56,821 bases of DNA from Nanobdellota archaeon (GCA_018896675.1 JAHIMK010000069.1:1-56821); one strand, 5' to 3'; positions 38,000 through 56,821 are shown, numbered from the stretch's first letter. The notes: generated by a model from the sequence alone, not told the origin. Translations and numbers: made by a program.

Positions 38000-38785
38000 A
38001 TGACAAAGTTCATTGCCATTATGGCTGGGAAAGGGGGTACTGGTAAGACAACTACTTCTGTTAATTTAGGTGCTGCATTAAGTTATTTTGGTAAAGATGT
38101 TATTGTTGTTGATGCTAACTTAACTACGCCTAATGTTGGATTACATTTAGGAGTTCCTGTTGTGCCTATACATTTGCATCATGTTTTACAAGGTAAGAAT
38201 GAAATTCATGAAGCTGTTTATATTCATCCTGCTGGCCTTAAGATTGTTCCTGGTAGCATAGCTTTAAGTGATTTGCATATAACTAACCCTGAAAAGTTAT
38301 CTTCTTCTTTGAAAAAATTAAGAAAATTGAAACCTGACTTTGTTCTTGTTGATGGTGCTGCGGGATTGGGCAGGGAAGCTTTGAATGCCATCAGTGCTGT
38401 TGATGATTTGTTGATTGTTACTAATGCTGAACTGCCAGCCATAACTGATGCTATGAAAACTATTAAGTTAGCTGAAGATTATAAGAAAAATGTTATAGGT
38501 GTTGTTTTGACTAAGACTGGACAGAGCAATTCTGAAATAACTATTAGAAGTGTAGAGTCAATGTTGGAAAGACCTGTTATTTCTGTAATACCTTATGATG
38601 TTTCTATAAAGCATGCATTGAAAATGAAAGATGCTGTTGTTTTCACGCATCCTAGGTCTAAACCTGCTGTTAGTTATAAGAAGTTAGCGGCTGCATTAAT
38701 TGGGCAAGATTATGTAGAAGACTATAGTGTTAAAGTTGAGAAGAAAGGTTTTTTAGTTAGTTTGTTTAAGAAGTTCTTTAAGTAA
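38000..38785 (+). CDS. minD: MinD/ParA-family P-loop ATPase (archaeal MinD type)
   Basis: Deviant Walker A AGKGGTGKTT, and VLVDGAAG Walker B. Confidence 0.85.
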   Translation: MTKFIAIMAGKGGTGKTTTSVNLGAALSYFGKDVIVVDANLTTPNVGLHLGVPVVPIHLHHVLQGKNEIHEAVYIHPAGLKIVPGSIALSDLHITNPEKLSSSLKKLRKLKPDFVLVDGAAGLGREALNAISAVDDLLIVTNAELPAITDAMKTIKLAEDYKKNVIGVVLTKTGQSNSEITIRSVESMLERPVISVIPYDVSIKHALKMKDAVVFTHPRSKPAVSYKKLAAALIGQDYVEDYSVKVEKKGFLVSLFKKFFK

Positions 38786-38810
38786 TTATTTAGTGGTAAT
38801 TATCATAAGA

Positions 38811-38818
38811 TTTATAAA
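38811..38818 (+). promoter_or_regulatory. TATA box TTTATAAA 25-32 nt upstream of ATG 38843
   Basis: Archaeal TATA consensus at leaderless spacing. Duplicated at 39912. Confidence 0.5.
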
Positions 38819-38842
38819 GTAAGTGTTTCTTGGAATTTAACA

Positions 38843-39703
38843 ATGGAAGTTACTAAAGAACAATTAGATTTTTTTGAATCAGAAGAGGAGACAGAAGAAC
38901 AAGTAGTTAGTTTACAACCTCAAGTTTTAGAAGAAGATAATACAGAGACTTTAGATGTTAAATTAGAAAGAACTTTTACAAGCGAAGAAGTTACAAGCAT
39001 AATCTTAGAAGCAAGTAATATGCAAATTAAGCAGGAATTTGAACTAAAAAAGAAAAAGTTTAATGAAGAAACAGCACAAGATCAAGTAGATATAAACAGC
39101 AATCCTAACCAATATTCTATTGATAACATTTATGAGCTTGCAAGAAAATATGATATTCCAGAGCATTATATACCTAAGGCTATCAACAATCACAAGCTAT
39201 CCTTGGAAGAGCAGATATTAGATATTAAAAGATTTAATATTTCAAGAGTAACATCCAGGAAATATAAACAATATGAAAAAGAAAAAGAAAAAGAAAAATA
39301 CAAAATCAGATTTAAGTATGAACAGGATTTAATTAAGACTCTAGAAGAAGCGTTTCCTACCGAAGAGTTCAAGGCTGAATGGCACAGAAAAATAGCCTTC
39401 TTTGGCCTTTTTCATGGTTGTTTAAATAGTTTTATATTAGACATATATAAGATAAGAGATATATCTAAAAAGAGAATTTTCAGAAAAGGTAAAAAAATAA
39501 AACGTAGTCAAAAAAAGGTTGCTTCTTTTCTTTTTTTGAAATATTATACTTCTCTGGAGGGTACAGGCAATAAATTATCTATAACAATTTACGATCCTTT
39601 ATTCCTAAGAAAATGTGGCACAATATTAGAAGAACTTAACATAGAATTCAAGCAAATTTATAAAAAAGAGAGGCATAGAATAGAATTTATTAGAGATTAT
39701 TGA
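38843..39703 (+). CDS. Hypothetical protein, member 1 of a three-gene paralog family downstream of minD
   Basis: N-terminus MEVTKEQL...ETLDVKLERTFTSEEVTSIILEASNMQ is shared with 39945 and, more distantly, 40788. Confidence 0.5.
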   Translation: MEVTKEQLDFFESEEETEEQVVSLQPQVLEEDNTETLDVKLERTFTSEEVTSIILEASNMQIKQEFELKKKKFNEETAQDQVDINSNPNQYSIDNIYELARKYDIPEHYIPKAINNHKLSLEEQILDIKRFNISRVTSRKYKQYEKEKEKEKYKIRFKYEQDLIKTLEEAFPTEEFKAEWHRKIAFFGLFHGCLNSFILDIYKIRDISKKRIFRKGKKIKRSQKKVASFLFLKYYTSLEGTGNKLSITIYDPLFLRKCGTILEELNIEFKQIYKKERHRIEFIRDY

Positions 39704-39717
39704 TAGAAATACCATAA

Positions 39718-39883
39718 TAAAATGAAAGATGCTGTAGTATTCACACATCCTCGTTCAAAACCAGCTGTAGCTTATAAAAAGTTAGCCGCTGCATTAATTG
39801 GACAAGATTATGTAGAAGACTATAGTGTTAAAGTTGAGAAAAAAGGTTTCTTTGTTAGTTTGTTTAGAAAAGTGTTTAAGTAA
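39718..39883 (+). pseudogene. Duplicated 3' fragment of minD (last ~53 codons plus stop)
   Basis: Encodes MKDAVVFTHPRSKPAVAYKKLAAALIGQDYVEDYSVKVEKKGFFVSLFRKVFK*, versus the minD end at 38624-38785. Confidence 0.85.
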
Positions 39884-39911
39884 CTACTTTTTAGTTATAA
39901 CAATAGAAAGA

Positions 39912-39919
39912 TTTATAAA
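39912..39919 (+). promoter_or_regulatory. TATA box TTTATAAA upstream of ATG 39945 (duplicated promoter)
   Basis: Same agatttataaa context as at 38809. Confidence 0.5.
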
Positions 39920-39944
39920 TGAGTAATTTCTTAGAATTTTAACA

Positions 39945-40763
39945 ATGGAAGTTACTGAAGAATACCAATTAGAAAGAGATAATCAAGAAGTTAATTTAAA
40001 GCCTAAAGAAGAAACTTTAGATGTTAAATTAGAAAGAACTTTTACAAGCGAAGAAGTTACAAGCATAATCTTAGAAGCAAGTAATATGCAAATTAGGCAG
40101 GAATTTCAACTAAAAAAGAAAAAGTTTAATGAAGAAACAGCACAAGAGCAAGTAGCTATAAACAGCAATCCTAACCAATATTCTATTGATAATATTTATG
40201 AGCTTGCAAGAAAATATGATATTCCAGAGCATTATATACCTAAGGCTATCAACAATCACAAGCTATCCTTGGAAGAGCAGATATCAGATCTTCAAAAGTT
40301 TGGAATCAATAAATCATGGAGAATCAAAAAGTTAGACGATAAAAAGAAAAAAAGGCAAAAACGCAAGTTCAAATATACATATGGGCAGGAGTTAATTAGA
40401 GCAATAGAGGAAGCTTTTCCTGCCGACGAGTTTAAAGCTAAATGGCACAGGTTAATATTAAACAGTGATGGAGATCACACTAGATTAAACATCTACAAGA
40501 TAACAGAAACATCAAAAAAGAGAATCTTTGGGAAAGGGAGAAAAATAAAACACAAATGCAAAAAGCTTGTGGGCGTTATATTTGGCAAGTATCCGAGTTA
40601 TGGAGATAAATTAAAGATAATAATATACGACCCTTTATTCCTGAGGAAATGTGGCACAGAATTAGAAGAACTTAACAAGCTAAGCAGACAGATTTATGAA
40701 ATGCGTGAAAGTTTTGACCTTAGAATAATTAGAGATTATGAACTTGAACTACCCTCAAACTAA
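39945..40763 (+). CDS. Hypothetical protein, paralog family member 2
   Basis: About 270 nt (40015-40290) are nearly identical to 38950-39225, then diverge sharply. Shares IYDPLFLRKCGT..LEELN near the C-terminus. Confidence 0.5.
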   Translation: MEVTEEYQLERDNQEVNLKPKEETLDVKLERTFTSEEVTSIILEASNMQIRQEFQLKKKKFNEETAQEQVAINSNPNQYSIDNIYELARKYDIPEHYIPKAINNHKLSLEEQISDLQKFGINKSWRIKKLDDKKKKRQKRKFKYTYGQELIRAIEEAFPADEFKAKWHRLILNSDGDHTRLNIYKITETSKKRIFGKGRKIKHKCKKLVGVIFGKYPSYGDKLKIIIYDPLFLRKCGTELEELNKLSRQIYEMRESFDLRIIRDYELELPSN

Positions 40764-42500: not shown

Positions 42501-43345
42501 TCAAATATCATCTAATGGGCTTTTTACTGATATCATTTTCGGTTTGACAATATGAAGGTATTCCATTGTGGTTCTTGGCTCACTATGTCCCAATAATGAT
42601 TGAACGGCTGTGACATCGGCCCCATTTTCTAAAACATGTGTAGCAAAACAATGCCGTTAAGAGTATGCGGATGGATGTTCTTTTTTATTTTTGATTTTTT
42701 AGCCGCTTTCTTTAATATCATTTGTACAGATCTGACTGAAAGATGTGCTTTTCTTCCAGGAAATAAATAATCGGTAGTATTTGATTTAATTATTAGTTTA
42801 ATGTCTTCTTTCAAGCACTCTGGGAGGATAAAAGGTCTGTCTTTATTCCCTTTTCCTTTTCTTACCCATCCAATGTTTTCTTCCAATTCAATGTCCATCT
42901 TTTTTAATTTGACAGCTTCACTTACTCTAAGCCCTGCTCCGTATATCAATGAAATCAAAAGTTTATGTTTGGAATTAGTTATTAAATTTATAATTTTCTT
43001 TACTTCATTTTTAGAAAGGCAAGTAGGTAAAGCTTTAGGTTTTTTTGAATATTTGATATTAAGTTTCATGCTTTTCCTAAGCACTTCTTCCATCATAAAT
43101 CTAAGAGAATTTAATGCAACATTAAGTGTCGAACCAGCAATTTCATCATTATTTTTTTTCATCCATTTTAATTCCTTATCCATAAATTTTTCTAGGAACT
43201 CTCTGCAATCTTTCTTTGAAAATTCTTTTGGCTGTTTAGGACAAAATAACAAGAATTTCTTCACATAAAATAAGTAAGTTTTAATGGTTTTAGGGCTAAG
43301 CTTTCTGCGAAACATTTCTTTCTTCATCTTTTCAATAATATCCAT
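42501..43345 (-). pseudogene. Xer-type tyrosine recombinase/integrase, frameshifted inside the HxLR box
   Basis: ORF 42629-43345 has SAM-like N-domain, GAGLRVSE and GKGNKDR, and ends [10 protein letters not shown]...*. Skipping 2 nt (AA, 42657-42658) continues as [37 protein letters not shown]... to the stop at 42501-42503. Confidence 0.8.
42643..42665 (+). repeat. 23-nt exact direct repeat, copy 1 (gcaaaacaatgccgttaagagta), spanning the recombinase frameshift
   Basis: Identical 23-mer at 45999-46021. Confidence 0.9.
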
Positions 43346-43489
43346 TTTTGGAATTAATTTAGGGTTATTAATAAAAATAACCCAAGTAAAATTGGAGATA
43401 TTTCATAAAAAGTGGAAATTTCTTATGATTTATTCCTATCCCATCAAGGAATAAAGGCGTTTTGCACATAAATTAGGTCTAGAAAGGCT

Positions 43490-44908
43490 GTAACTGTTTA
43501 GCTACTTAGATACTCTAGTAGCTAAATTTTGATAAATGATAGTTTCCTTTATCTTTTTGGGGTGTAGAGCTAAATGAATGAAAATTCCACCACATTTAGT
43601 AGGATTGAGTAAACGGGATATAATTCGCCGAAATATTCTTCTAGAATCTCGAATTGATGAACTTGAAAAACAAGTTGAGGATTTAAAACGTCATCTTCTT
43701 GCATATGAAAATGCCCATACTCCACCTTCACAAAAACGCAATTATCCTAAACGAGAAAAGAAAGAAGGTGCAAAGCTTGGTACACCTAAGGGTCACAAAG
43801 GAGTTACCCGACAAACTCCTGAACCTACTGAATTTAAATCACTAAGCTTAGATTGTTGCCCTCATTGTCAAAACCATCTTGGTAAGCCCAAACGCATAGA
43901 GAAACGAATAATTGAAGAAATTCCTGATCCTCAACCATTGAGGATTATAGAATTCTCAATCCCTCACTATTATTGTTCATATTGCAATACTGAAGTTATC
44001 GCAACAGATTCTGAATTGCCTAAGGTTGGAAATTTAGGCAATAATCTTCAGGCTCAAATTGCACTTATGAGATATGAAGATAGATTACCTCATCGTAAAA
44101 TAGCAAATACCCTCAATCGCCAATATGGATTACTATTAACTCCAGCTACAATCTTCGATGTGACAAGAAGAGTATGTGACCAACTCTTAGAAATATACAA
44201 TAATTTCAAACAAGAGATGCGAAATGCTTCGCAGCTTAATGCCGATGAAACTGGTGCGAAGGTAAATGGATTAAAACACTGGTTTTGGGTATTTATGAGC
44301 CTAACTACTGTTTTGTTCTGTTTAAGAAAAAAACGAGATTATAAAGTAATAATTGAAGTACTAGGCAACGATTATGGTGGAATTCTTACTTGCGATGGTT
44401 TAAAACAATATGCTAAAGTCATCAAGAGAATTCAACGCTGTTGGGCACATTTAATACGAGAAGCAAAATTCTTTGCACAAAAATATGAAGGACAAGCAAG
44501 AGTTTTGTATAATTCACTTTGTGAACTATTTGTCAAAATAAAAAGTGTAAATGTAGAAACAACAATTGAAGTGAGAAATAAAATATTCAATGATTGCATT
44601 AGGGATATGCAATCATACATTAATACAGCAAGGAGTTACAAGGAATTAAAGAAATTTGCAGTAACAATAGAAAATGGATTACATCAATGGTTTACTTGCA
44701 TATTGTATCCTGAGATTGAACCGACAAACAACAGAGCAGAAAGAGAATTAAGAGAATTTGTAGTACAAAGAAAAATATTTGGTTCATTAAGAAGCGAAAA
44801 AGGAATGATAATTACAGAAACTATCATGTCTGTATTAGCAACATGGAAAATAAGAAACTTAAATACATATAGTATGCTAAGGGCAACCCTTAGTAGCTAA
44901 ACAGTTAC
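43490..44908 (+). mobile_element. IS66-family insertion sequence (single-ORF type), 1419 bp
   Basis: 20-nt terminal inverted repeats GTAACTGTTTAGCTACT(T/A)AG at 43490-43509 and 44889-44908 (19/20 match, GTAA ends). 8-bp direct target duplication GAAAGGCT at 43482-43489 and 44909-44916. Confidence 0.85.
43578..44900 (+). CDS. IS66-family transposase (TnpC-type DDE)
   Basis: Leucine-zipper-like N-terminus, zinc finger CPHC...CSYC, ADETG, and CWAHLIREAKF signature. Stop codon lies inside the right IR. Confidence 0.85.
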   Translation: MKIPPHLVGLSKRDIIRRNILLESRIDELEKQVEDLKRHLLAYENAHTPPSQKRNYPKREKKEGAKLGTPKGHKGVTRQTPEPTEFKSLSLDCCPHCQNHLGKPKRIEKRIIEEIPDPQPLRIIEFSIPHYYCSYCNTEVIATDSELPKVGNLGNNLQAQIALMRYEDRLPHRKIANTLNRQYGLLLTPATIFDVTRRVCDQLLEIYNNFKQEMRNASQLNADETGAKVNGLKHWFWVFMSLTTVLFCLRKKRDYKVIIEVLGNDYGGILTCDGLKQYAKVIKRIQRCWAHLIREAKFFAQKYEGQARVLYNSLCELFVKIKSVNVETTIEVRNKIFNDCIRDMQSYINTARSYKELKKFAVTIENGLHQWFTCILYPEIEPTNNRAERELREFVVQRKIFGSLRSEKGMIITETIMSVLATWKIRNLNTYSMLRATLSS

Positions 44909-44922
44909 GAAAGGCTTATATA
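44909..44922 (+). promoter_or_regulatory. BRE-like GAAAGG plus TATA (CTTATATA) about 29 nt upstream of the radical SAM gene
   Basis: The purine-rich element coincides with the right copy of the IS target duplication. Confidence 0.45.
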
Positions 44923-44950
44923 CAAGTTATCATTCAAGAATAGTAATAAA

Positions 44951-46255
44951 ATGGCATTAAAAGCTCCAATATCCGCTCAAATTGAGCTAACAATCAATTG
45001 TAACCAGCTATGTGGACATTGTTATAACTTTTGGAGATATCAAACAACTGGTCAAAAATATCAAAAAGAAGATAGAACTTTACTACCTGAAATTATAAAA
45101 AGAACAATTGAAGCAGAAGTGCTACACGTAGTTCTAACAGGAGGAGAACCACTTCTTTACTCTAAAGACACAGCACGATATATAAAACAATTAAGGGACA
45201 GCAACGTAGCAGTCGGACTAAACACAAATCTGTCCTTACTAACTCAAGAAAAAGAGAACATTCTAACAACTGCTGGATTGCAAGGAGTTTTAACTAGTCT
45301 AACAAGTTATGATCCAGAAACACACCACCAAATAACAAACTCAAAAAATACCCATAGTAAAACATTAAGAGCAATAGAATCATTAACAAGCAAAGGTTAT
45401 TTTGTAGCAGTTAATATGGTTGTGAGTCAACAAAACAAAGATCATGTATACCCAACAGGAAAATTAGTGCATCAACTAGGGGCTACAGCATTTTGCGCAA
45501 CCAAAATGACACCAAGCCCAGCAGGGGGCCAAGCACATCTAGAGCAAACACTCAACAAACAACAAACCAAACAAATGCTAGAAGACCTATTAAAAGTAGA
45601 AGAAGAAACAGGACTAGACGTCACAACATTAAATCCGATACCCTTATGTTTTACACCAGACATTGAACGTTATCAACATATTCTCAATAAAAACTGTTCA
45701 GCAGGAAAAACTAGTGTAGGAATAAGTACTGCAGGAGAAGTAAGAGCTTGTCAACATTGCGATCAAAAGTACGGAAACATCTTGCTTGAACCATTACAAG
45801 ACATTTGGAAAAGAATGGAAGAATGGAGAGACCACTCACTACTACCTGAAATATGCAAAAACTGCGAAGGACTACGAGACTGTGGAGGAGGATGCAGAGA
45901 AAGCGCCAAAGCACATAATGGTAGCCGGAACAAATCAGATGCATTAGTAACTGGAAAATACAAAAAACCAGCATCAACTAAAGAAAAAGACTTACTAGGC
46001 AAAACAATGCCGTTAAGAGTAAGCAAAAACTTAACATACCGATTAGAAGAAGAGGGAGTCGTTCTATACAAAACAACTCGAAATTTTACAATAGTTGACA
46101 ATGAAACATTCAAAGTTATAACAGCATTGCAAGGGGAAAAGTTTACAATAAACCAACTAGAGCGACACCTAAACACGCCAATGCAACTAATAATCACACA
46201 TTTACACAAAAAAAAGGTAATAATCGGAGGAAATAAAAAATGGCAAAAAAGCTAG
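44951..46255 (+). CDS. Radical SAM/SPASM peptide maturase with C-terminal PqqD-like (RRE) extension
   Basis: CNQLCGHC (CX3CX2C, C17/C21/C24). SPASM CSAGKTSVGISTAGEVRAC (CX12GX4C) and CKNCEGLRDCGGGC (CX2CX5CX3C). C-terminal VVLYKTTRNFTIVDNETFKVITALQGEKFTINQLERHL resembles PqqD/RRE. Confidence 0.85.
   Translation: MALKAPISAQIELTINCNQLCGHCYNFWRYQTTGQKYQKEDRTLLPEIIKRTIEAEVLHVVLTGGEPLLYSKDTARYIKQLRDSNVAVGLNTNLSLLTQEKENILTTAGLQGVLTSLTSYDPETHHQITNSKNTHSKTLRAIESLTSKGYFVAVNMVVSQQNKDHVYPTGKLVHQLGATAFCATKMTPSPAGGQAHLEQTLNKQQTKQMLEDLLKVEEETGLDVTTLNPIPLCFTPDIERYQHILNKNCSAGKTSVGISTAGEVRACQHCDQKYGNILLEPLQDIWKRMEEWRDHSLLPEICKNCEGLRDCGGGCRESAKAHNGSRNKSDALVTGKYKKPASTKEKDLLGKTMPLRVSKNLTYRLEEEGVVLYKTTRNFTIVDNETFKVITALQGEKFTINQLERHLNTPMQLIITHLHKKKVIIGGNKKWQKS
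45999..46021 (+). repeat. 23-nt exact direct repeat, copy 2, inside the radical SAM gene between SPASM and RRE-like regions
   Basis: gcaaaacaatgccgttaagagta is identical to 42643-42665. Confidence 0.9.
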
Positions 46256-46425
46256 AAGACATACCAAAAGAGGAAAAAGGAAACCTGCAAGACAAATTGT
46301 CAGAAATAGGAAGTGACTACACACCAAAAATAAAAATAGGTTCTAAAATAAGCACAGATTATGGAGACAACTGCGATTGCGATTGCAATTGTGACTGCGA
46401 TGCAACCTGTGATTTTTATGACTAA
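46240..46425 (+). CDS. Candidate RiPP precursor peptide with C-terminal (Cys-Asp/Asn) repeat core
   Basis: 61 aa, charged leader, core DNCDCDCNCDCDATCDFYD with six Cys each followed by D/N. 16-nt overlap with the maturase gene. Confidence 0.6.
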   Translation: MAKKLEDIPKEEKGNLQDKLSEIGSDYTPKIKIGSKISTDYGDNCDCDCNCDCDATCDFYD

Positions 46426-46464
46426 AAACTTTGATAGGGGCAAAATGCTCCCATTTTTATTATT

Positions 46465-47001
46465 ATGATATCACAAGTTGAAGTAACAAAAGAAATAGAA
46501 GATTTTGCTAGAGGCATCACTGGCAAAGGCTCTGAACTCTCTAAAAACATAGGCAGAAAGATCCTTAGTGTTACCAAGAAAATTGAACTACCTAATGAAG
46601 AAGAGAAGAAGATGCGTTGGAAACGTACTGCCACTCAAATTTTGAAAGATGGATGGGTTGTTAAAGGAAAAAGCTGCACAGACATCACAGTTCTATTCAT
46701 TGCTGTTGCTAAAGCCAAGGGAATAAAAGCAATATTTGTAAAACTATACTCTATTAAACGACAAATGCTTCATGCAGCTGTTGAATTACCTGGTGAGAAT
46801 AGCATCTTAGATGCAACTACTGGAAGAAGAGATAACTCTTCAAATGAAATTCTTTTTGACGAATACAAAGTCTACAAAAAAGGAAGAGATAGTTGGGATA
46901 TAGGGTTAAGTGGTGTTGAAGATATGCCTTCAGTAATGGAAGAAATAGGTAAAAAGATTGACGCTGATAAAAGTGCAAAACCCATAATTGCACATAAATA
47001 G
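46465..47001 (+). CDS. Transglutaminase-like cysteine peptidase fold protein
   Basis: KGKSCTDITVLFIAVAKAKGI ... HAAVEL ... LDATTG, the Cys-His-Asp order typical of the transglutaminase-like superfamily. Confidence 0.55.
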   Translation: MISQVEVTKEIEDFARGITGKGSELSKNIGRKILSVTKKIELPNEEEKKMRWKRTATQILKDGWVVKGKSCTDITVLFIAVAKAKGIKAIFVKLYSIKRQMLHAAVELPGENSILDATTGRRDNSSNEILFDEYKVYKKGRDSWDIGLSGVEDMPSVMEEIGKKIDADKSAKPIIAHK

Positions 47002-47043: not shown

Positions 47044-47113
47044 TAGGGGCTTTCTTTGTTAGCTTTGTTTTTGTTTGTTATTGGCAACTAGCTTTGTTAG
47101 CTGGGGCAAGTGT
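47044..47113 (+). repeat. Cassette-boundary repeat R1
   Basis: TAGGGGCTTTCTTTGTTAGCTTTGTTTTTGTTTGTTATTGGCAACTAGCTTTGTTAGCTGGGGCAAGTGT. Confidence 0.85.
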
Positions 47114-47147
47114 TGAAGAAAGGTATGTACAAATTGTACCTTTTCTT

Positions 47148-47312
47148 TTAGAAGTTTTCTTTGAATACTAACTGTACATTAACATCTGCTTGTAATAATG
47201 CTCTTTGTATGTCTCTAATTAGCTCATTTATTAGTTTTTCATCTACAAACATGCTTTTAGCTATCTTGCTTAATGTTGTTTTTAGACTTGATCCTAATTT
47301 CTCTAACACCAT
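47148..47312 (-). pseudogene. srp54: Isolated N-terminal fragment (54 codons) of an SRP54-like gene
   Basis: My translation is [54 protein letters not shown]. It matches the SRP54 N-domain start and has no GTPase domain after it. Confidence 0.6.
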
Positions 47313-47364: not shown

Positions 47365-47434
47365 TAGCCGCTTTCCTTGTTAGCTTTGTTTTACTTTGTG
47401 ATTAACAACTAGCTTTGTTAGCTGAGGCAAGTGT
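47365..47434 (+). repeat. Cassette-boundary repeat R2 (sub-family A)
   Basis: TAGCCGCTTTCCTTGTTAGCTTTGTTTTACTTTGTGATTAACAACTAGCTTTGTTAGCTGAGGCAAGTGT. Identical to R5 from position 7 (GCTTTCC) onward; the match also continues 6 nt past the repeat end (GTTATC vs GTTATT, first 5 identical). Confidence 0.9.
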
Positions 47435-47475
47435 GTTATCATTTTTCTGGCATCAGGAAAATGCTCTTTAATTTT

Positions 47476-48490: not shown

Positions 48491-48955
48491 ATGGAAATAA
48501 AATTAAGGAAATATAGAGAAAAAGATTTAGAAAGGCATTTAGAATTATTCTTAATGAATGGAATTTATAAAAAAATAAATGAAAAAATAAAAAATCAAGA
48601 AAAAATATGGTTAAAGAAAGTAATCCAAAATTATGAGGGAGAAAAACCTGAATTTTTCACTATAGCTATAAATTTAGATAATAAATTAATAGGCAATTTG
48701 GTGGCTGAAAAAATTGATTATAAGAATAAAACTTTAGAGGTTGGATTTTGGATAGGCAAAGATTATTGGGGTAAAGGGGTTGCAACAAAGGCATTGAATC
48801 TTTTTTTGAAAATGATTATAAAAAAGTTTAATCCTAAAAAAATTATTGCACATCATAAAAAAGGTAATTTTGCTTCTGGAAGAGTTTTAGAGAAAGCTGG
48901 TTTTAAGTTTGAAATTGAGAAAAAAGGGATGAAAACTTATAATATTATGTTGTAG
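48491..48955 (+). CDS. GNAT-family N-acetyltransferase (RimJ/RimL-like)
   Basis: EVGFWIGKDYWGKGVATKALNLFL acetyl-CoA motif. The stop TAG is the first triplet of repeat R4. Confidence 0.8.
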   Translation: MEIKLRKYREKDLERHLELFLMNGIYKKINEKIKNQEKIWLKKVIQNYEGEKPEFFTIAINLDNKLIGNLVAEKIDYKNKTLEVGFWIGKDYWGKGVATKALNLFLKMIIKKFNPKKIIAHHKKGNFASGRVLEKAGFKFEIEKKGMKTYNIML

Positions 48956-49020
48956 CCGCTTTCTTTGTTAGCTTTGTTTTACTTTCTTATCAACAACTAG
49001 CTTTGTTAGCTTAGGCAAGT
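48953..49020 (+). repeat. Cassette-boundary repeat R4 (sub-family A)
   Basis: TAGCCGCTTTCTTTGTTAGCTTTGTTTTACTTTCTTATCAACAACTAGCTTTGTTAGCTTAGGCAAGT. Confidence 0.9.
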
Positions 49021-49892
49021 TAAAGTTTTTCTAATAGATTTAATGCTTCCTTGTCAAACTTTGAGAAAGCAAACCATTTCTTCCCCAAATCTTTTAATGA
49101 AGCTCCAAAATGATAAACTTCTTTGTTATCGATTATCATAAACCGGTCATGGGATTTATTGAATTCTTTGATTTCAATTTTTTGGTATTGGGAATTAAAT
49201 TTGTTTAAATCTAATTGTAATTGTTTTGTAATTTCTTTTGTATAGATTATGACTTTAACATTTTCCTTCTTTTTGGAAAACAATGTCAAAACTGAATCGT
49301 CAACATAATTATCAATTAAAGTGATTGATTGATTTGCATTTCTTATTAAATCTGAAACAAAAGTGTAAGCATCAAATATCTGCCCATTAAAGAATATTCC
49401 CTGTTTTGGCTTTATTTGTTTTTGATCTATAGCATTGAATATTTTTTCAAAATTTTTGTCATGTTGAATTTGTTTTCTTTCAATATTATCTACTCTAATA
49501 AATAATCCTTCATTTTTAGCTAAAAAGTGCTTCATAGCAACAAATGCACTCATAATTTCAATACTTACTTTTATTGCAATATCGCTTTTGAGAATACCTG
49601 AGAGCATAGCTACACCTTCTTCTGTAAATGCATAAGGTAAATATCTTCTTCCACCATATTTGGATCTTGAGGTGCCATTTTGGAACCTCAAGTTTTCTAA
49701 CTCAGATTCTGTTAATTGAAACATGAAATTTTCTGGAAATCTCTCAATATTTCTCTTTACAGCTTTATTAAGTTGTTTTGTTGGAACTCTATAAAGCTCT
49801 GCTAAATCAGCATCAAGCATTACCTGCAGTCCTCTGATTGTGTAGATCTTATTTTTTATATTTTGTTTGTCTAAAACTATTAATTTTTTCAT
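49020..49892 (-). CDS. ORF6N-domain DNA-binding protein with PLD-like C-terminal domain
   Basis: IYTIRGLQVMLDADLAELY...RFPENFMFQLT (ORF6N). C-terminal SHDRFMIIDNKEVYHFGASLKDLGKKWFAFSKF. Confidence 0.65.
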   Translation of the reverse strand: MKKLIVLDKQNIKNKIYTIRGLQVMLDADLAELYRVPTKQLNKAVKRNIERFPENFMFQLTESELENLRFQNGTSRSKYGGRRYLPYAFTEEGVAMLSGILKSDIAIKVSIEIMSAFVAMKHFLAKNEGLFIRVDNIERKQIQHDKNFEKIFNAIDQKQIKPKQGIFFNGQIFDAYTFVSDLIRNANQSITLIDNYVDDSVLTLFSKKKENVKVIIYTKEITKQLQLDLNKFNSQYQKIEIKEFNKSHDRFMIIDNKEVYHFGASLKDLGKKWFAFSKFDKEALNLLEKL

Positions 49893-49970: not shown

Positions 49971-50040
49971 TAGAGGCTTTCCTTGTTAGCTTTGTTTTAC
50001 TTTGTGATTAACAACTAGCTTTGTTAGCTGAGGCAAGTGT
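49971..50040 (+). repeat. Cassette-boundary repeat R5 (sub-family A)
   Basis: TAGAGGCTTTCCTTGTTAGCTTTGTTTTACTTTGTGATTAACAACTAGCTTTGTTAGCTGAGGCAAGTGT. Confidence 0.9.
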
Positions 50041-50041
50041 G

Positions 50042-50404
50042 TTATTTTAATTTTTTTATTTCCTTTTTTTTCATATGTTTTATAATCTGAATTTTATTAT
50101 CATATTCTTCATCAATTTCATAATTGATATCTTCGTTATAAGAACAATAAATATATCCTAATTTTTTGGTAAGAAACCATAGGATTTGTTCATAAAATGC
50201 CGGCAAACATTCAGTAGAATATCCCTCTCCAAGATATTCTTTACCACATTTAATTTTTTTACCAATTAAACTTTCAGCAAACTGTTTTGCTTTAATTAAA
50301 TCTTTTTCAAAATTTTCCTCCTCTACCTTTTTACCTATTAGGACTTCTTTATGTTCTCCTTCATACCAAATATATTCTATTAAAAAAATATTAAAATCTA
50401 CCAT
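50042..50404 (-). CDS. Hypothetical protein
   Basis: 120-aa ORF starting 1 nt after the DinD-like stop. No motif recognised. Confidence 0.4.
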   Translation of the reverse strand: MVDFNIFLIEYIWYEGEHKEVLIGKKVEEENFEKDLIKAKQFAESLIGKKIKCGKEYLGEGYSTECLPAFYEQILWFLTKKLGYIYCSYNEDINYEIDEEYDNKIQIIKHMKKKEIKKLK

Positions 50405-50786: not shown

Positions 50787-50856
50787 TAGCCGCTTTCTTT
50801 GTTAGCTTTGTTTCTCTTTCTTATCAACAACTAGCTTTGTTAGCAGGGGCAAGTGT
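50787..50856 (+). repeat. Cassette-boundary repeat R6 (sub-family A)
   Basis: TAGCCGCTTTCTTTGTTAGCTTTGTTTCTCTTTCTTATCAACAACTAGCTTTGTTAGCAGGGGCAAGTGT. Confidence 0.9.
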
Positions 50857-51444
50857 GTCAATATTGAATAATCTTGCTTTTATATCATTTTCAATGTTTA
50901 TTGTGCCTTTTAAGATATAATGTGCTTCTTCTTCCTCAAAGAATTCAATATTAAATTTGTTATCCTTAATATTTACTGCTAGAATATTATCCTGAATAGA
51001 GATAGAAGGGAGTATAACAAAATCTGTGTTTTTTGTTGCAAACCAAGCGCCTTGCTGGTTTGGGAAAGAAGATATTGAACTATTATATAATTTTTTAGGC
51101 AGAAATAATATTGCTTTTTTCCATTCTCTAATACCTCTCCATCTCTCTATTGATGCAGAAATTGCTAAACCATTCTGTAAAGAGAGAGGAATGGATCCTG
51201 CTTCAATAGCATAATTTTTAGTATATTGATATAATGCTTCTGCAATCTCCTCTTTTACTTTTAATTTAATTAATTCTAAAAGATATTTTGTTCCATCAGC
51301 TTTAGGATGTTTTTTTATAAATTCAGCAGCATCTTTAGGTATTGCAGTTTCAAAGCTTAATTTTACTTCTTTTTTTATGTTATCCTTATTAGGCAGTTGT
51401 TTTAAGAATTCTATTTCTTTACAAGTGTTTATTATTAAATCCAT
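50824..51444 (-). CDS. Hypothetical protein; 3' end reads into repeat R6
   Basis: 206-aa ORF. The last residues TLAPANKASC are encoded by the repeat. Confidence 0.4.
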   Translation of the reverse strand: MDLIINTCKEIEFLKQLPNKDNIKKEVKLSFETAIPKDAAEFIKKHPKADGTKYLLELIKLKVKEEIAEALYQYTKNYAIEAGSIPLSLQNGLAISASIERWRGIREWKKAILFLPKKLYNSSISSFPNQQGAWFATKNTDFVILPSISIQDNILAVNIKDNKFNIEFFEEEEAHYILKGTINIENDIKARLFNIDTLAPANKASC

Positions 51445-51498: not shown

Positions 51499-51567
51499 TA
51501 GAGGCTTTGTTTGTTAGCTTTATTTCTCTTTCTTATCAACAACTAGCTTTGTTTAGCTGGGGCAAGT
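51499..51567 (+). repeat. Cassette-boundary repeat R7 (sub-family A)
   Basis: TAGAGGCTTTGTTTGTTAGCTTTATTTCTCTTTCTTATCAACAACTAGCTTTGTTTAGCTGGGGCAAGT. Confidence 0.9.
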
Positions 51568-51752
51568 TCTAATGGCATTCTCTTTCCTAGCTTTAGAGAG
51601 CCATCTTTGTTTATACTTTTTATTTCTATGCTACAACACTCTGGATCGTCCCAGAAATAGCTTTTACAATTAGGGCAAGCTTTTGGCATTCTTTCTGTTC
51701 TTGTCCTCCAATCATATTCGCATAACTTACAGATGCATAGTTTTCCTTTCAT
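51543..51752 (-). CDS. Small zinc-ribbon protein
   Basis: CKLC...CPNC four-Cys ribbon. The C-terminal tail is encoded by repeat R7. A near-identical partial copy sits at 56671-56821. Confidence 0.5.
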   Translation of the reverse strand: MKGKLCICKLCEYDWRTRTERMPKACPNCKSYFWDDPECCSIEIKSINKDGSLKLGKRMPLELAPAKQS

Positions 51753-52609: not shown

Positions 52610-52679
52610 TAGAGGCTTACTTTAGTTTAATTATTTCTCTTTCTTATCAACAACTAACTTTATTCGCTTAGGTAAGTGT
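52610..52679 (+). repeat. Cassette-boundary repeat R9 (divergent sub-family A)
   Basis: TAGAGGCTTACTTTAGTTTAATTATTTCTCTTTCTTATCAACAACTAACTTTATTCGCTTAGGTAAGTGT. Confidence 0.8.
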
Positions 52680-52732
52680 GTTATCCGGTATTCTTGAAAA
52701 ACTTTATATAATCTAATTAAAAAGTTAAATTC

Positions 52733-55145: not shown

Positions 55146-56615
55146 ATGAAATTCAACCAATTACTGGAGACAGCAAACATAAAGTCTAATGACAAAGATA
55201 TGCTTTCATCCTTTTACACAGAGCTTGCTTCATCTAATCTTCCCACCTATAAAAAACTGTTAGTATATGGTTGTAGTGGTTTTGGAAAGACAAAATTAAT
55301 CAAATCTTTGATAAGCAAAGCAAGAGTGCCAATTATTTATTATGGCTTTGAACCTGAAAAAGGATATACTCCTTGCAAAAATACTTTAGAACTTCTTAAG
55401 AAAGTAAAAGAAAGTAAAGAATGTATAATTTTTATAGACAACATTGAAGTTATAATGGCTAATCAGCAAGATTCTTCTTGTGGAAATATGGATGTGCAAG
55501 ATCAAAAATATTTATTTGAGATTTTCCATTTGGTTGAGACATCATCAAATAAGATTCTTATCTTTTCTACTGTAGCCAAATATGCTTTGCATTCATGCTT
55601 AATTGACAGAATAGATTTTTGTATAAAAATGGCTCCGCCTTTAAATAAAGCAAAACTAAATTTTATAAAAAAGAATCATCTTTGCAAATTATCAAAGAAT
55701 TTTATGGTTGTCTTGTGTGATAAAACTAGGGGTTATTCATATAGGGATATTGACAGTTTGATAAAACTATTAAATCCTATCAAGCAGAGTCTTTCACTTC
55801 AGGACATAAACGATATTGTATTAAAATTTATTCCGTCAGAACTTTCAAAATATACTCTTAGTTATGAAAAGGATTTAACTCTAAAAAATATGTCTTCTAG
55901 TAAAAATATCCAGGAAACTCTTAGAAAATCAGTTTTGCTTATAAAACAGAAAATATTGGTACAAAAATTAGGCATTAACATAAACAATTTTTTGTTTTTT
56001 TACGGCGAGCCGGGCACTGGAAAAACATATGCAGCCAGGGCTTTTGCAGGTGAAACAGGAATGCCTATTGTTACTATAAACTCGTCTAACATTTCTAGCA
56101 GGATGTCTTCGCCTTCAGAATTGCTTGGGCATATTATAGAACTTGGAACACGTTATGAAAACATGATATTTCTTTTTGATGAAGCTGAGAAGATTTTTGG
56201 GAGAAATACTATGGGTGAGGATGCTGAACTGCAGGGTGATTTGCAGAGTTATCTTGACGGTGTTGGTAATAAAGTTAAATCTACAATAATATTTACACTT
56301 AACAATGAGGCGAGGTTTGGTGAAGCTTTGAAAGATAGGTTTGTAATGGTAAAGTTTGAATTGCCTGACTTAAAAGAAAAAGTTAAATTTTTGAAAAGTA
56401 AGTGTGCTTCTGCTAAAGAGCATTTCTCTTTAAGCTTTAATATTGAATCCTTAGCTAAAATAATGGGTAAAGTAAGTTATAGGGTTTTGGGAAGAATATG
56501 GGATCATACACTTTTGAGGAATATCTCTCTTAATAAGAAATCATTGTCTATTGAAGATTTTAAGGAAACTATTAAGTCTTTTAAGATTAAGAAGGTAAAT
56601 ATGCTTACTGGGTAG
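55146..56615 (+). CDS. Tandem AAA+ ATPase (degenerate first module, canonical second module)
   Basis: Module 1 has YGCSGFGKT / IIFIDNIE. Module 2 has YGEPGTGKTYAARAFA / IFLFDEAEKIF. The stop TAG is the first triplet of repeat R12. Confidence 0.7.
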   Translation: MKFNQLLETANIKSNDKDMLSSFYTELASSNLPTYKKLLVYGCSGFGKTKLIKSLISKARVPIIYYGFEPEKGYTPCKNTLELLKKVKESKECIIFIDNIEVIMANQQDSSCGNMDVQDQKYLFEIFHLVETSSNKILIFSTVAKYALHSCLIDRIDFCIKMAPPLNKAKLNFIKKNHLCKLSKNFMVVLCDKTRGYSYRDIDSLIKLLNPIKQSLSLQDINDIVLKFIPSELSKYTLSYEKDLTLKNMSSSKNIQETLRKSVLLIKQKILVQKLGININNFLFFYGEPGTGKTYAARAFAGETGMPIVTINSSNISSRMSSPSELLGHIIELGTRYENMIFLFDEAEKIFGRNTMGEDAELQGDLQSYLDGVGNKVKSTIIFTLNNEARFGEALKDRFVMVKFELPDLKEKVKFLKSKCASAKEHFSLSFNIESLAKIMGKVSYRVLGRIWDHTLLRNISLNKKSLSIEDFKETIKSFKIKKVNMLTG

Positions 56616-56680
56616 AAGCTTTCTTTGTTAGCTTTGTTTTTGTTTTATATCAACAACTAGCTTTGTTCGCTTAGGCAAGT
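56613..56680 (+). repeat. Cassette-boundary repeat R12 (sub-family A)
   Basis: TAGAAGCTTTCTTTGTTAGCTTTGTTTTTGTTTTATATCAACAACTAGCTTTGTTCGCTTAGGCAAGT. Confidence 0.9.
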
Positions 56681-56821
56681 TCTAAGGGCATTCTCCTTCC
56701 TAGCTTTAGAGAGCCATCTTTGTTTATACTTTTTATTTCTATGCTACAACACTCTGGATCGTCCCAGAAATAGCTTTTACAATTAGGGCAAGCTTTTGGC
56801 ATTCTTTCTGTTCTTGTCCTC
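56671..56821 (-). CDS. Second copy of the small zinc-ribbon gene (3' part; runs off the window)
   Basis: 56681-56821 is near-identical to 51568-51708. The stop comes earlier (TAA in the repeat) than in copy 1. Confidence 0.5.
   Translation of the reverse strand, partial: RTRTERMPKACPNCKSYFWDDPECCSIEIKSINKDGSLKLGRRMPLELA

What the first reader, a model, noticed from the sequence alone, without database searches (positions are those of the whole stretch)
44951..47001. Candidate archaeal RiPP locus: radical SAM/SPASM maturase with fused RRE, a (Cys-Asp)n precursor peptide, and a transglutaminase-like peptidase
The 434-aa enzyme has a textbook CX3CX2C site and a complete SPASM motif (CX12GX4C ... 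CX2CX5CX3C). After these comes a C-terminal ~80-aa region resembling a PqqD-type RiPP recognition element. A 61-aa ORF overlaps its stop by 16 nt. That ORF has a charged leader and the core DNCDCDCNCDCDATCDFYD, with six Cys each immediately followed by Asp or Asn. Known SPASM enzymes of the ranthipeptide/SCIFF class make Cys-to-Asp/Asn thioethers, but on spaced motifs such as CX3D. A strictly alternating C-D array would be a new substrate topology. The next gene has a Cys-His-Asp transglutaminase-like fold and could act as a leader peptidase. The block looks compositionally different from its surroundings (more C and A, different codon choice). It sits between a recombinase/IS and the cassette array, which suggests horizontal acquisition.
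Basis: partly seen in the sequence, partly recalled or inferred. Interest (0 to 1): 0.8.

Follow-up and report, generated by a model that had tools for sequence, protein, structure and literature searches.

The report
Uncharacterised archaeal radical-SAM peptide-maturation module
A DPANN archaeon carries a compact, mobile three-gene unit (a radical-SAM enzyme, a cysteine- and aspartate-rich 61-residue peptide, and a cysteine protease) that belongs to a large undescribed family of peptide-modifying systems found mainly in ultra-small archaea and bacteria, and whose chemistry and product are still unknown.

Summary
Window 44951-47001 encodes three genes. [quoted passage not shown] The second is a translationally coupled 61-aa ORF ending NCDCDCNCDCDATCDFYD. 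The third is a 178-aa transglutaminase-fold protein with an invariant Cys-His-Asp triad.

The small ORF is a real gene. It sits after the maturase in every close relative, and its core shows only synonymous changes. 43 of 80 species-level homologous loci carry a Cys-rich small ORF at that position, against 2.5% of background ORFs. These loci are mostly Patescibacteria/CPR and DPANN.

The third-gene slot is filled by three unrelated peptidase types: the transglutaminase-like protein and two HExxH families. This supports a leader-peptidase role.

- The strict (Cys-Asp)n alternation is lineage-specific. Relatives have CDC units, His residues and variable spacing.
- The C-terminal domain does not match Pfam PqqD. 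It has the recognition-element (RRE) fold order in a permuted position.
- The canonical last SPASM cysteine is absent.
- The downstream repeats are not attC-like hairpins.

No curated family or paper was found for this family. The modification chemistry is inferred, not shown. The best guess is Cys thioether cross-links. I rate it a new variant of a known kind, with interest 0.6.

The parts
44916..44922 (+). TTATATA, a candidate archaeal TATA box about 32 nt upstream of the maturase ATG. It implies a near-leaderless transcript.
   Evidence: Read from the sequence. L092 has TTTAAATA at a similar distance upstream. Inferred, not tested.
44951..46255 (+). Radical SAM/SPASM peptide maturase, 434 aa
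   Evidence: Pfam and NCBIfam hits. AF2 model pLDDT 92.7. Foldseek top matches are SuiB, SkfB, PqqE and anSME. 81 homologues were found, about 55 of them full length.
44999..45022 (+). CX3CX2C radical SAM cluster motif (C17, C21, C24)
   Evidence: Translation. C24 is invariant and C17/C21 are at least 90% conserved in 51 sequences.
45647..45940 (+). SPASM auxiliary-cluster region. It holds C233, C249, C267, C302, C305, C311 and C315, plus invariant D330. There is no later Cys.
   Evidence: All seven Cys and D330 are invariant in A1. TIGR04085 scores 46.6 bits against a cut-off of 27.
46013..46228 (+). [quoted passage not shown] Proposed leader-binding domain.
   Evidence: DSSP of the AF2 model. 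The profile hits wHTH domains and the N-terminal region of 8vpo. R364 is conserved in at least 90% of sequences. No PF05402 hit.
46226..46230 (+). GGAGG ribosome-binding site for the precursor ORF, located inside the 3' end of the maturase gene
   Evidence: Sequence.
46240..46368 (+). Precursor leader (residues 1-43). It carries the N-terminal KLEDIPKEE motif and a DY(G) motif just before the core.
   Evidence: Conserved in P0096, P0097, L092, L001 and L003. An L-E-x-I type motif also occurs in other DPANN precursors, and G[FIY][EV][ST]L[L] in CPR leaders.
46369..46425 (+). Precursor core NCDCDCNCDCDATCDFYD plus the stop codon
   Evidence: Only synonymous changes compared with L092.
46437..46461 (+). 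Small hairpin (GGGGCAAAATGCTCC) followed by a T-run, lying between the precursor and peptidase genes. Possible attenuator. Weak evidence.
   Evidence: 2 terminator-like sites found, 1.5 expected. Fold z-score -0.88. Conserved only in L092.
46465..47001 (+). Transglutaminase-fold cysteine peptidase, 178 aa, proposed leader peptidase. Catalytic C71 is at 46675-46677, H103 at 46771-46773 and D116 at 46810-46812.
   Evidence: Invariant triad in 15 sequences. AF2 pLDDT 92.1. Foldseek hits 3isr, LapG and TglA. Pfam Transglut_core scores 18.8 bits, below its cut-off of 23.
43490..44908 (+). Context: an IS66-family insertion sequence with 20-nt terminal inverted repeats and an 8-bp target duplication GAAAGGCT (43482-43489 and 44909-44916). 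It is inserted immediately upstream of the TATA-like element.
42629..43345 (-). Context: a truncated XerA/integron-integrase-like tyrosine recombinase. It ends within box II and lacks the catalytic Tyr region.
   Evidence: Pfam Phage_integrase matches profile positions 3-132 of 172. NF040815 matches positions 6-218 of 263.
46002..46024 (+). 23-nt sequence GCAAAACAATGCCGTTAAGAGTA inside the maturase gene, repeated directly at 42646-42668. It marks the junction of a deletion variant seen in sister strains.

Best explanation
Overall reading
The region is a self-contained, horizontally mobile three-gene RiPP module in a DPANN archaeon.

Shown by computation
- The module is a co-oriented operon-like unit. 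The precursor ORF overlaps the maturase stop by 16 nt and has its own GGAGG.
- The same gene triplet recurs as a block in unrelated genomic contexts.
- The maturase family is paired with Cys-rich, acid-rich small ORFs in dozens of species.
- The third gene is always some kind of peptidase.

Inferred mechanism
1. The C-terminal winged-helix (RRE-like) domain of the maturase binds the N-terminal leader motif (K-L-E-D-I-P).
2. The 18-residue Cys/Asp core enters the active site between the radical SAM cluster and the SPASM auxiliary clusters.
3. 5'-deoxyadenosyl radical abstracts hydrogen from acceptor residues, most plausibly Asp/Asn next to or near each Cys.
4. The Cys thiolates close thioether rings of the sacti- or ranthi- type. 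This could happen up to six times, at -2 Da each. One auxiliary cluster has only three Cys ligands, so it may take invariant D330 or a substrate Cys as its fourth ligand.
5. The transglutaminase-fold Cys-His-Asp peptidase then removes the leader, probably near the conserved D-Y-G junction.

Unknown
The function of the small, polyanionic, cross-linked product is not known. The conserved unit has no transporter, so an intracellular or metal-binding role is as open as a secreted one.
For: Maturase identity
-. The closest solved relatives are all peptide- or protein-modifying SPASM enzymes: SkfB 3.8e-29, PqqE 2.7e-27, SuiB 1.4e-25 and TvgB 2.6e-25.

Precursor is real
- Conserved position and frame.
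- Core under purifying selection: 4 synonymous, 0 non-synonymous differences.
- 43 of 80 loci carry a Cys-rich small ORF, against a 2.5% background.

RRE-like domain
- Fold order from the model, the definition in PMC12710340, and a weak profile hit to 8vpo residues 18-83.
- Strong C-terminal domain scores (at least 25 bits) go with a peptide in 40 of 54 loci. Weak scores go with a peptide in 4 of 26 (counted).

Peptidase role
- Three unrelated peptidase families fill the adjacent slot. They are Peptidase_MA_2-like HExxH (16 loci), a novel family with invariant HExxH...E (13 loci) and the TG-like family (7 loci, plus L092/L093).
- The TG-like fold and triad are supported.

Thioether precedent
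- Freyrasin has six Cys-to-Asp C-beta links, NxxcA has a Cys-Asn link, and QhpD makes Cys-Asp/Glu links (PMC8326336).
- After a Cys, D occurs in 39% of cases and D/E/N/Q in 65%. Among core non-Cys residues the figures are 25% and 47%.

Mobility
-.
Against: - No experiment exists, so the chemistry is assigned by analogy only.
- The enzyme reaches no NCBIfam equivalog cut-off. Its best score is 112 bits against a cut-off of 500. It is no closer to the ranthipeptide maturase CteB (5wgg, 1.4e-14) than to SkfB, PqqE or SuiB.
- No fixed Cys-to-Asp spacing is conserved among close precursors, unlike the CX3D of freyrasin.
- The C-terminal domain fails PF05402. Its profile-profile match to N-terminal PqqD domains of distant homologues is weak (probability 5.8%). 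By sequence it looks like a generic wHTH.
- Some TG-like homologues are orphans without a maturase (L096 and L097).
- Sister strains have lost most of the module, so it is dispensable.
Confidence: 0.7

Rival explanations
1. The gene module is as described, but the product is an intracellular peptide-derived cofactor or metal-binding peptide, in the way PQQ and mycofactocin are products of SPASM enzymes. It would not be a secreted thioether-cross-linked peptide. The Cys/His/Asp-rich core would serve as metal ligands, or a conserved Tyr would be the chemically important residue.
For: - No transporter or immunity gene lies in the conserved three-gene unit.
- The hosts are genome-reduced DPANN/CPR organisms.
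- Cores are about one third Cys, with CxC/CxxC spacing like metallothioneins.
- Close relatives replace Asp by His next to Cys.
- DPANN-clade precursors conserve [DE]-Y just before the first Cys, and Y-D at the C-terminus in the closest relatives.
- PqqE and MftC are among the best profile hits.
Against: - Core sequences are hypervariable between lineages, with at least six distinct core types. This is typical of RiPP natural products and not of cofactors.
- The module is present or absent between near-identical strains and sits in a variable region, so it is not essential.
Confidence: 0.2
2. The maturase performs a different radical reaction on this core. Candidates are Cys-to-formylglycine or dehydro conversion as in anSME, C-C or C-O cross-links involving the conserved Tyr/Phe/Trp, or epimerisation. 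Cys would then serve other roles, such as disulfides or cluster binding.
For: - anSME, SuiB (Lys-Trp C-C), PqqE (Glu-Tyr C-C) and TvgB (cyclopropyl) match as well as the thioether synthases do.
- No conserved Cys-acceptor spacing exists.
- Aromatic residues are conserved at both ends of the DPANN cores.
Against: - Cys is the one feature shared by every core type across the family, with 244 Cys in 42 unique cores.
- Aromatic residues are absent from several CPR core types, such as ACDNSGGCD...GCDG.
- To my knowledge, every characterised SPASM enzyme acting on multi-Cys cores makes thioethers (own knowledge plus PMC8326336).
Confidence: 0.2
3. The 61-aa ORF is spurious, being a hexanucleotide repeat read in frame. 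The radical SAM protein would then be a housekeeping enzyme (NirJ/AhbD/MoaA-like) whose C-terminal wHTH binds DNA.
For: - The top NCBIfam hits by score are NirJ2, GeoRSP rSAM and AhbD.
- TRF reports a period-6 array at 46372-46401.
- The C-terminal domain profile hits MarR/AsnC-type regulators.
Against: - All those hits fall far below the family cut-offs.
- The ORF is conserved in position, frame and core sequence with only synonymous changes.
- The 43 of 80 against 2.5% enrichment holds.
- The repeat uses mixed codons (TGC/TGT, GAT/GAC, AAT/AAC).
- A peptidase is always nearby.
Confidence: 0.03

Closest known systems
Ranthipeptides / SCIFF systems (CteB-thermocellin, PapB-freyrasin, NxxcB)
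   Same: - A radical SAM/SPASM maturase with an RRE acts on a short precursor whose C-terminal core is rich in Cys.
- Freyrasin has six Cys-to-Asp links and NxxcA a Cys-to-Asn link (PMC8326336).
- Here Cys is usually followed by D, N, E or Q.
   Different: - The RRE-like domain is C-terminal here, whereas it is N-terminal in solved maturases such as SuiB (PMC8326336).
- No hit reaches any curated maturase or precursor model.
- CteB is a more distant match than SkfB or PqqE.
- There is no CX3D-type fixed spacing.
- The last SPASM Cys is absent.
- The hosts are DPANN/CPR rather than Firmicutes.
Sactipeptide synthases (SkfB, AlbA)
   Same: - SkfB is the best sequence-profile match among solved structures (3.8e-29) and a top Foldseek match.
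- These enzymes form Cys-derived thioethers on a leader-bearing peptide.
   Different: - Identity is only about 20%.
- SkfB has an N-terminal RRE and a different auxiliary-cluster set-up.
- Sactipeptide cores have N-terminal donor Cys residues and C-terminal acceptors in a hairpin. They are not densely interleaved Cys/Asp.
QhpD (thioether synthase of quinohemoprotein amine dehydrogenase gamma subunit)
   Same: It is a SPASM enzyme that makes Cys-Asp (C-beta) and Cys-Glu (C-gamma) thioethers.
   Different: - It acts on an enzyme subunit, not a RiPP, in a different operon context.
- The QhpD family is not among the listed matches (one search shows the best 25 of 84 families; one search lists 25 at E up to 0.01).
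PqqE/PqqD and MftC/MftB cofactor pathways
   Same: A SPASM enzyme, an RRE, a small precursor and a dedicated peptidase work together. One auxiliary cluster has a non-Cys ligand in PqqE. These families rank among the better profile hits.
   Different: - The RRE is a separate protein or N-terminal fusion there.
- The precursors there are conserved and not Cys-rich.
- The cores here are hypervariable.
Systems from Haft's in-silico radical SAM work: ACGX-repeat system (TIGR04340) and FibroRumin Cys-rich RiPP (TIGR04135/TIGR04136)
   Same: - Both are uncharacterised radical SAM/SPASM enzymes paired with Cys-repeat peptides.
- The rSAM_ACGX model is the second-best match to the SPASM region.
- One CPR precursor weakly resembles FibroRumin (E 0.012).
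   Different: Scores are far below cut-off: 75 against 400 bits, and 15.6 against 45 bits. The repeat units, taxa and domain order differ.
Bacterial transglutaminase-like cysteine proteinases (LapG, 3isr)
   Same: The fold and the Cys-His-Asp triad order match.
   Different: - This is a much smaller stand-alone protein of 163-178 aa.
- It is genetically linked to a radical SAM/precursor pair.
- The Pfam score is below threshold.

Membership tests
Radical SAM superfamily (PF04055) | CX3CX2C cluster motif and a profile match above the gathering score | tested here: met
   C17/C21/C24 are present. PF04055 scores 70.5 bits against 29.5. The partial TIM-barrel model is confident.
SPASM subfamily (TIGR04085 / PF13186) | Domain profile above cut-off | tested here: met
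   TIGR04085 scores 46.6 against 27. PF13186 scores 29.1 against 21.5.
SPASM subfamily (TIGR04085 / PF13186) | Full seven-Cys motif CX9-15GX4C ... CX2CX5CX3C ... C, including the final downstream Cys | tested here: not met
   CX12GX4C and CX2CX5CX3C are present and invariant, and upstream C233 is invariant. No Cys follows C315 in the window protein, and the family alignment A1 has no invariant or 90%-conserved Cys after C315. Invariant D330 is a candidate substitute ligand, which is an inference.
RiPP recognition element (RRE) | [quoted passage not shown] | tested here: met
   The AF2 model has strands 355-357, 362-365, 370-373 and 379-382, then helices 384-393, 400-407 and 412-420. Block pLDDT is mostly 93-97 and falls to about 80 after residue 420. 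The definition is quoted. This rests on a predicted structure only.
RiPP recognition element (RRE) | Sequence membership in PqqD family PF05402 | tested here: not met
   0 of 34 C-terminal domains hit PF05402 at E<=1. hhalign against N-terminal PqqD domains of distant homologues gives probability 5.8%. The only related signal is the profile hit to 8vpo residues 18-83, E 0.0096.
RiPP recognition element (RRE) | Binds the leader peptide | not testable with these tools
   This needs a complex prediction or binding assay.
Ranthipeptide / SCIFF system | Maturase or precursor reaches a curated family model (e.g. SCIFF maturase or precursor) | tested here: not met
   No equivalog reaches its cut-off. 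The best is 112 bits against 500. The precursor has 0 NCBIfam and 0 Pfam hits. Ten diverse family precursors give none above cut-off.
Ranthipeptide / SCIFF system | Non-alpha (C-beta/C-gamma) thioether links from Cys | not testable with these tools
   Requires MS/MS and NMR of the modified peptide.
Transglutaminase-like cysteine peptidase (PF01841 clan) | Pfam profile above the gathering score | tested here: not met
   18.8 bits against 23 for the window protein and 22.6 against 23 for L073. Four homologues carry a precomputed PF01841 hit.
Transglutaminase-like cysteine peptidase (PF01841 clan) | Papain/transglutaminase-type fold with a conserved Cys-His-Asp triad | tested here: met
   Foldseek hits 3isr (E 1.2e-5, probability 1.0), LapG and TglA. 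C71, H103 and D116 are invariant in 15 sequences.
Integron gene cassette | Cassettes bounded by attC sites that fold as imperfect hairpins, next to an intact integron integrase | tested here: not met
   The 75-nt repeats fold no better than shuffles on either strand (z from -0.32 to +0.84). The recombinase is truncated.

The most novel reading that the evidence does not exclude
This would be the founding example of a RiPP class shared by DPANN archaea and CPR bacteria. Its features would be a radical SAM/SPASM maturase with a permuted (C-terminal) recognition domain, an auxiliary cluster lacking its fourth Cys ligand, and action on densely packed CDC/CxC acidic cores. The product would have a cross-link topology or a metal- or cofactor-type function not seen in sacti- or ranthipeptides. 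Such a product could matter for the episymbiotic lifestyle of these ultra-small organisms.
Probability: 0.3. Interest if true: 0.8.

Novelty: new variant of a known kind. Interest (0 to 1): 0.6.

Why it matters
DPANN archaea and CPR bacteria have tiny genomes and are generally thought to have little secondary metabolism. This study finds a compact peptide-maturation module with recognisable relatives in 222 places among one-genome-per-species GTDB assemblies. Among the 80 best-matching loci, those that carry Cys-rich precursors are mostly from these two groups.

The module has no curated model and no paper in the searchable library. The precursors are short, the enzyme is a single 434-aa protein, and only three genes are involved. 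That makes it directly testable by heterologous co-expression and mass spectrometry.

Possible pay-offs:
- A new cross-link chemistry or topology on Cys/Asp cores.
- A first functional RiPP from DPANN archaea.
- A worked example of an RRE placed C-terminally in a SPASM enzyme.
- A clear case of three unrelated peptidases filling the same slot, which would help annotate two unnamed HExxH families.

Tried and rejected
- The search for related loci with the 51-sequence alignment failed because no stretch was conserved enough. It worked with 12 sequences on genome contigs. The metagenome scan was not repeated.
- Sequence tests for a PqqD-type RRE were negative or weak. I could not crop the model for a domain-only Foldseek search, so the RRE call rests on secondary-structure order plus one weak profile hit.
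- Searches with the precursor found only P0096 and P0097 (word-indexed search), and P0096 and P0098 (exhaustive phmmer over 1.84 billion representatives). The window's precursor subtype is therefore rare, and the wider family could only be reached through the maturase.
- No fixed Cys-to-Asp/Asn spacing (CxxD, NxxC, CX3D) holds across the window, L001 and L003. I dropped the idea of predicting ring topology.
- The hairpin plus T-run after the precursor gene is not statistically distinguishable from chance and is conserved only in the closest relative.
- The integron/attC reading of the downstream repeats was rejected after folding.
- An SSV-type split-integrase explanation for the 23-nt repeat was rejected. 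The reading frame that would continue the recombinase across the junction (the antisense ORF 45763-46209 listed) shows no recombinase C-terminal motifs by eye.
- Rfam found nothing in the window.
- Six literature searches for this family found no description. A seventh search only identified PDB entry 8vpo. Subscription journals are not covered.
- The third partner family (A9) has no Pfam or PDB relative.
Full report
OBSERVATION

The maturase is at 44951-46255 (434 aa). The small ORF is at 46240-46425 (61 aa) and overlaps the maturase stop by 16 nt. The third ORF is at 46465-47001 (178 aa).

The maturase has C17-x3-C21-x2-C24, C249-x12-G262-x4-C267 and C302-x2-C305-x5-C311-x3-C315. It passes Pfam Radical_SAM and SPASM and the NCBIfam SPASM domain model TIGR04085 (46.6 bits against 27). 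The small ORF ends NCDCDCNCDCDATCDFYD and is preceded by GGAGG at 46226-46230.

One correction applies. No Cys follows C315 in the window protein, and the 51-sequence alignment has no conserved Cys after C315. The canonical last Cys of the SPASM motif is therefore missing. Seven Cys (C233, C249, C267, C302, C305, C311, C315) and D330 are invariant. Whether D330 or a substrate Cys completes the second auxiliary cluster is an inference.

IS THE SMALL ORF REAL?

Yes.
- The best homologues of the maturase are P0002 (70%, 'MAG: archaeon') and P0004 (55%). Each is followed directly by a 60-62-aa ORF with the same leader (M-x-[KR]-K-L-E-D-[IL]...) and a Cys/Asp-rich end.
- A locus 87% identical at the DNA level (L092) has an identical core. 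Compared with the window, the core shows 4 synonymous and 0 non-synonymous codon differences. The leader shows 6 and 8.
- The repeat uses mixed codons and does not vary in length, so it does not behave as a microsatellite.
- In one-genome-per-species GTDB assemblies the maturase family has 222 relatives, and I kept the best 80. In 43 of these 80, a small ORF starting within -80 to +250 nt of the maturase stop has at least 4 Cys in its last 35 residues. Only 2.5% of 3866 background small ORFs in the same loci do.
- The loci with such a peptide are mostly Patescibacteria/CPR, with some DPANN archaea and a few others.
- A neighbour-joining tree puts the window, L092, L001/L009, L003, L011 and L014 in one DPANN clade. 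The peptide-less loci (Omnitrophota, Desulfovibrionaceae and others, which carry methyltransferase genes) form a separate clade.

WHAT IS CONSERVED IN THE PRECURSOR?

Strict alternation is not conserved.
- The cores of close relatives are DCHDTCDSCDCHGCDCYYD (L001), GCHICDCDLCDCHACDCYYD (L003) and NCECIDCDACDCYACNSGCYISDC (L093).
- Across 42 unique cores, Cys residues are spaced by 1-3 residues. The residue after Cys is D in 39% of cases and D/E/N/Q in 65%. Among core non-Cys residues these figures are 25% and 47%.
- At least six core types exist, for example CDCYDCDYNCEECD, ACDNxSGGCD...GCDG, SCQCVNCQSCDNKCNK and ACYCHCACACH.
- Leaders carry an N-terminal hydrophobic-Glu-x-hydrophobic motif. 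This is KLEDI in the window clade and G[FIY][EV][ST]L[L] in 19 of 45 other peptides.
- DPANN-clade precursors share [DE]-Y one to three residues before the first Cys.
- Exhaustive phmmer with the window peptide found only two cluster representatives, so this subtype is rare.

THE MATURASE

The AF2 model is confident (pLDDT 92.7, pTM 0.91).
- Foldseek and profile searches against the PDB return SuiB, SkfB, PqqE, TvgB (8vpo) and anSME. The ranthipeptide enzyme CteB is more distant.
- No NCBIfam equivalog comes near its cut-off.
- Residues 355-426 form four short strands followed by three helices. [quoted passage not shown]
- By sequence the domain fails PF05402 in all 34 members tested. It matches generic winged-helix proteins and, weakly, residues 18-83 of 8vpo (E 0.0096). 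Its profile-profile alignment to the N-terminal PqqD domains of distant homologues has only 5.8% probability.
- Those distant homologues carry the RRE N-terminally, so the architecture here is permuted.
- Strong C-terminal-domain scores track with presence of a Cys-rich peptide: 40 of 54 loci against 4 of 26, counted.

THE THIRD GENE

- The 178-aa protein has invariant C71, H103 and D116 in 15 sequences.
- Its model is confident (pLDDT 92.1).
- Foldseek matches a putative cysteine protease (3isr, E 1.2e-5), LapG and TglA.
- Pfam Transglut_core is just below threshold.
- In the wider family the same slot is filled by a Peptidase_MA_2-like HExxH protein in 16 loci. In 13 loci it is filled by an unnamed family of about 230 aa with invariant H-E-x-x-H and a downstream Glu, and no Pfam or PDB relative. 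In 7 loci it is filled by the TG-like protein.
- Within the DPANN clade itself, L014 has the zincin and the window has the TG-like protein.
- Three unrelated peptidase types in one slot are good evidence that the slot is a leader peptidase.
- Caveat: two TG-like homologues are orphans.

MECHANISM

The shown steps are the gene content, the coupling, the conservation and the fold assignments. The inferred steps are these:
1. The leader binds the C-terminal winged helix.
2. The radical SAM enzyme abstracts hydrogen from the core.
3. Cys thioethers form to nearby acidic or amide residues. The precedents are freyrasin, NxxcA and QhpD (PMC8326336).
4. The TG-like peptidase removes the leader near the D-Y-G junction.

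I put about 0.85 on 'radical SAM RiPP module with a real precursor and a dedicated peptidase', and about 0.5 on thioethers specifically. A cofactor or metal-binding product, or a non-thioether reaction, is not excluded.

CONTEXT

The host is an archaeon. The flanks encode Sec61-beta, NAC and an RPA-like protein, and sister contigs are labelled Nanoarchaeota.
- The block has the highest GC of any 2-kb window (0.359 against 0.293 +/- 0.029).
- Homology to L092 runs from 8 nt before the maturase ATG to 21 nt after the peptidase stop, and the flanks are unrelated.
- An IS66 element (43490-44908) has 20-nt inverted repeats and an 8-bp target duplication. It sits immediately upstream of a TATA-like TTATATA.
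- Upstream of that lies a truncated XerA/integron-integrase-like recombinase.
- Three contigs from sister strains are 99.6% identical in the left flank. They lack 42669-45998 and 46059-46510, which leaves a 179-aa fusion ORF. The first junction lies in a 23-nt direct repeat.
- The intact arrangement is confirmed independently in MAG GCA_018898035.1. Both forms occur in JGI sample 3300015370.
- The module is therefore mobile and dispensable.
- The 75-nt repeats that separate the downstream genes are real, and gene order differs between strains. They do not fold as attC-like hairpins.

COMPARISON AND NOVELTY

The system works like a sacti- or ranthipeptide pathway. It fails every curated membership test beyond 'radical SAM' and 'SPASM domain'. 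It has a permuted RRE position and an incomplete Cys set. Its precursor family has no model. I found no description in the searchable literature. I rate it a new variant of a known kind, with interest 0.6.

Noticed in passing
window 42646-42668 and 46002-46024; 42669-45998 and 46059-46510; loci L089, L090, L091, L099, L100: There is a structural polymorphism between near-identical strains. Three contigs lack the truncated recombinase, the IS66, maturase codons 1-349, the RRE-like domain, the precursor and the first 15 peptidase codons. This leaves a 179-aa fusion ORF (P0082). The first deletion junction lies in a 23-nt direct repeat. The intact form is confirmed in an independent MAG. How the left copy of the 23-mer arose is unexplained.
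   Followed up: partly
window 43482-44916: A complete IS66-family element (single 440-aa transposase) has 20-nt terminal inverted repeats and an 8-bp target-site duplication GAAAGGCT. It is inserted between the recombinase gene and the maturase promoter region.
   Followed up: yes
window 47044-47118, 47365-47439, 48953-49027, 49971-50045, 50787-50861, 51499-51573, 52610-52684, 56613-56687: Eight copies of a 75-nt repeat each contain two direct GCTTTGTTAGCT-like boxes. They separate small gene modules (Bro-N, GNAT, ORF6N and others) whose order differs in sister strain L089. They do not fold as hairpins, so they are not attC-like. Their nature is unknown.
   Followed up: partly
window 42629-43345 (-): The tyrosine recombinase is closest to archaeal XerA/integron-integrase models but ends inside box II (HPHTL|...). 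It is probably a pseudogene. Its truncation point coincides with the 23-nt repeat.
   Followed up: partly
window 47148-47312 (-): A 54-aa ORF matches only the N-terminal domain of SRP54. It is a gene fragment stranded between two 75-nt repeats.
   Followed up: no
window 38621-39641 and 39719-40677: Two adjacent stretches are about 76% identical and look like tandem paralogues. Each spans more than one called gene (282-, 53-, 272- and 279-aa genes lie here in L089), and none has a Pfam match on record.
   Followed up: no
maturase residues 315-434 (window 45893-46252); alignment A1: The family lacks the last SPASM Cys. D330 is invariant in 51 sequences and may be the fourth ligand of the second auxiliary cluster. 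Alternatively the site may be open for a substrate Cys.
   Followed up: partly
loci L012, L018, L019, L022, L032, L033, L035, L043, L066, L081, L082, L084, L087 (alignment A9): An unnamed family of about 230 aa lies next to the maturase in CPR genomes. It has invariant HExxH plus a downstream Glu and no Pfam or PDB relative. It is probably a new gluzincin-type leader peptidase.
   Followed up: partly
loci L047 (Bacteroidales MAG) and L049 (Crenarchaeota MAG): The precursors are identical, and the maturases have the same length, the same C-terminal-domain score and zero distance in the tree. This indicates either a binning or contamination error or a very recent cross-domain transfer.
   Followed up: no
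loci L039, L055, L057-L062, L065, L067, L068, L070-L078: A separate clade of the maturase family occurs in Omnitrophota, Desulfovibrionaceae, Nitrospinota and others. It has no Cys-rich peptide nearby. About 13 loci, mostly in this clade, have SAM-methyltransferase genes nearby, and two of those genes were confirmed by Pfam. This clade probably has a different substrate.
   Followed up: no
loci L096 and L097: Close homologues of the TG-like peptidase (up to 61% identity) occur without any radical SAM gene or Cys-rich ORF nearby.
   Followed up: partly
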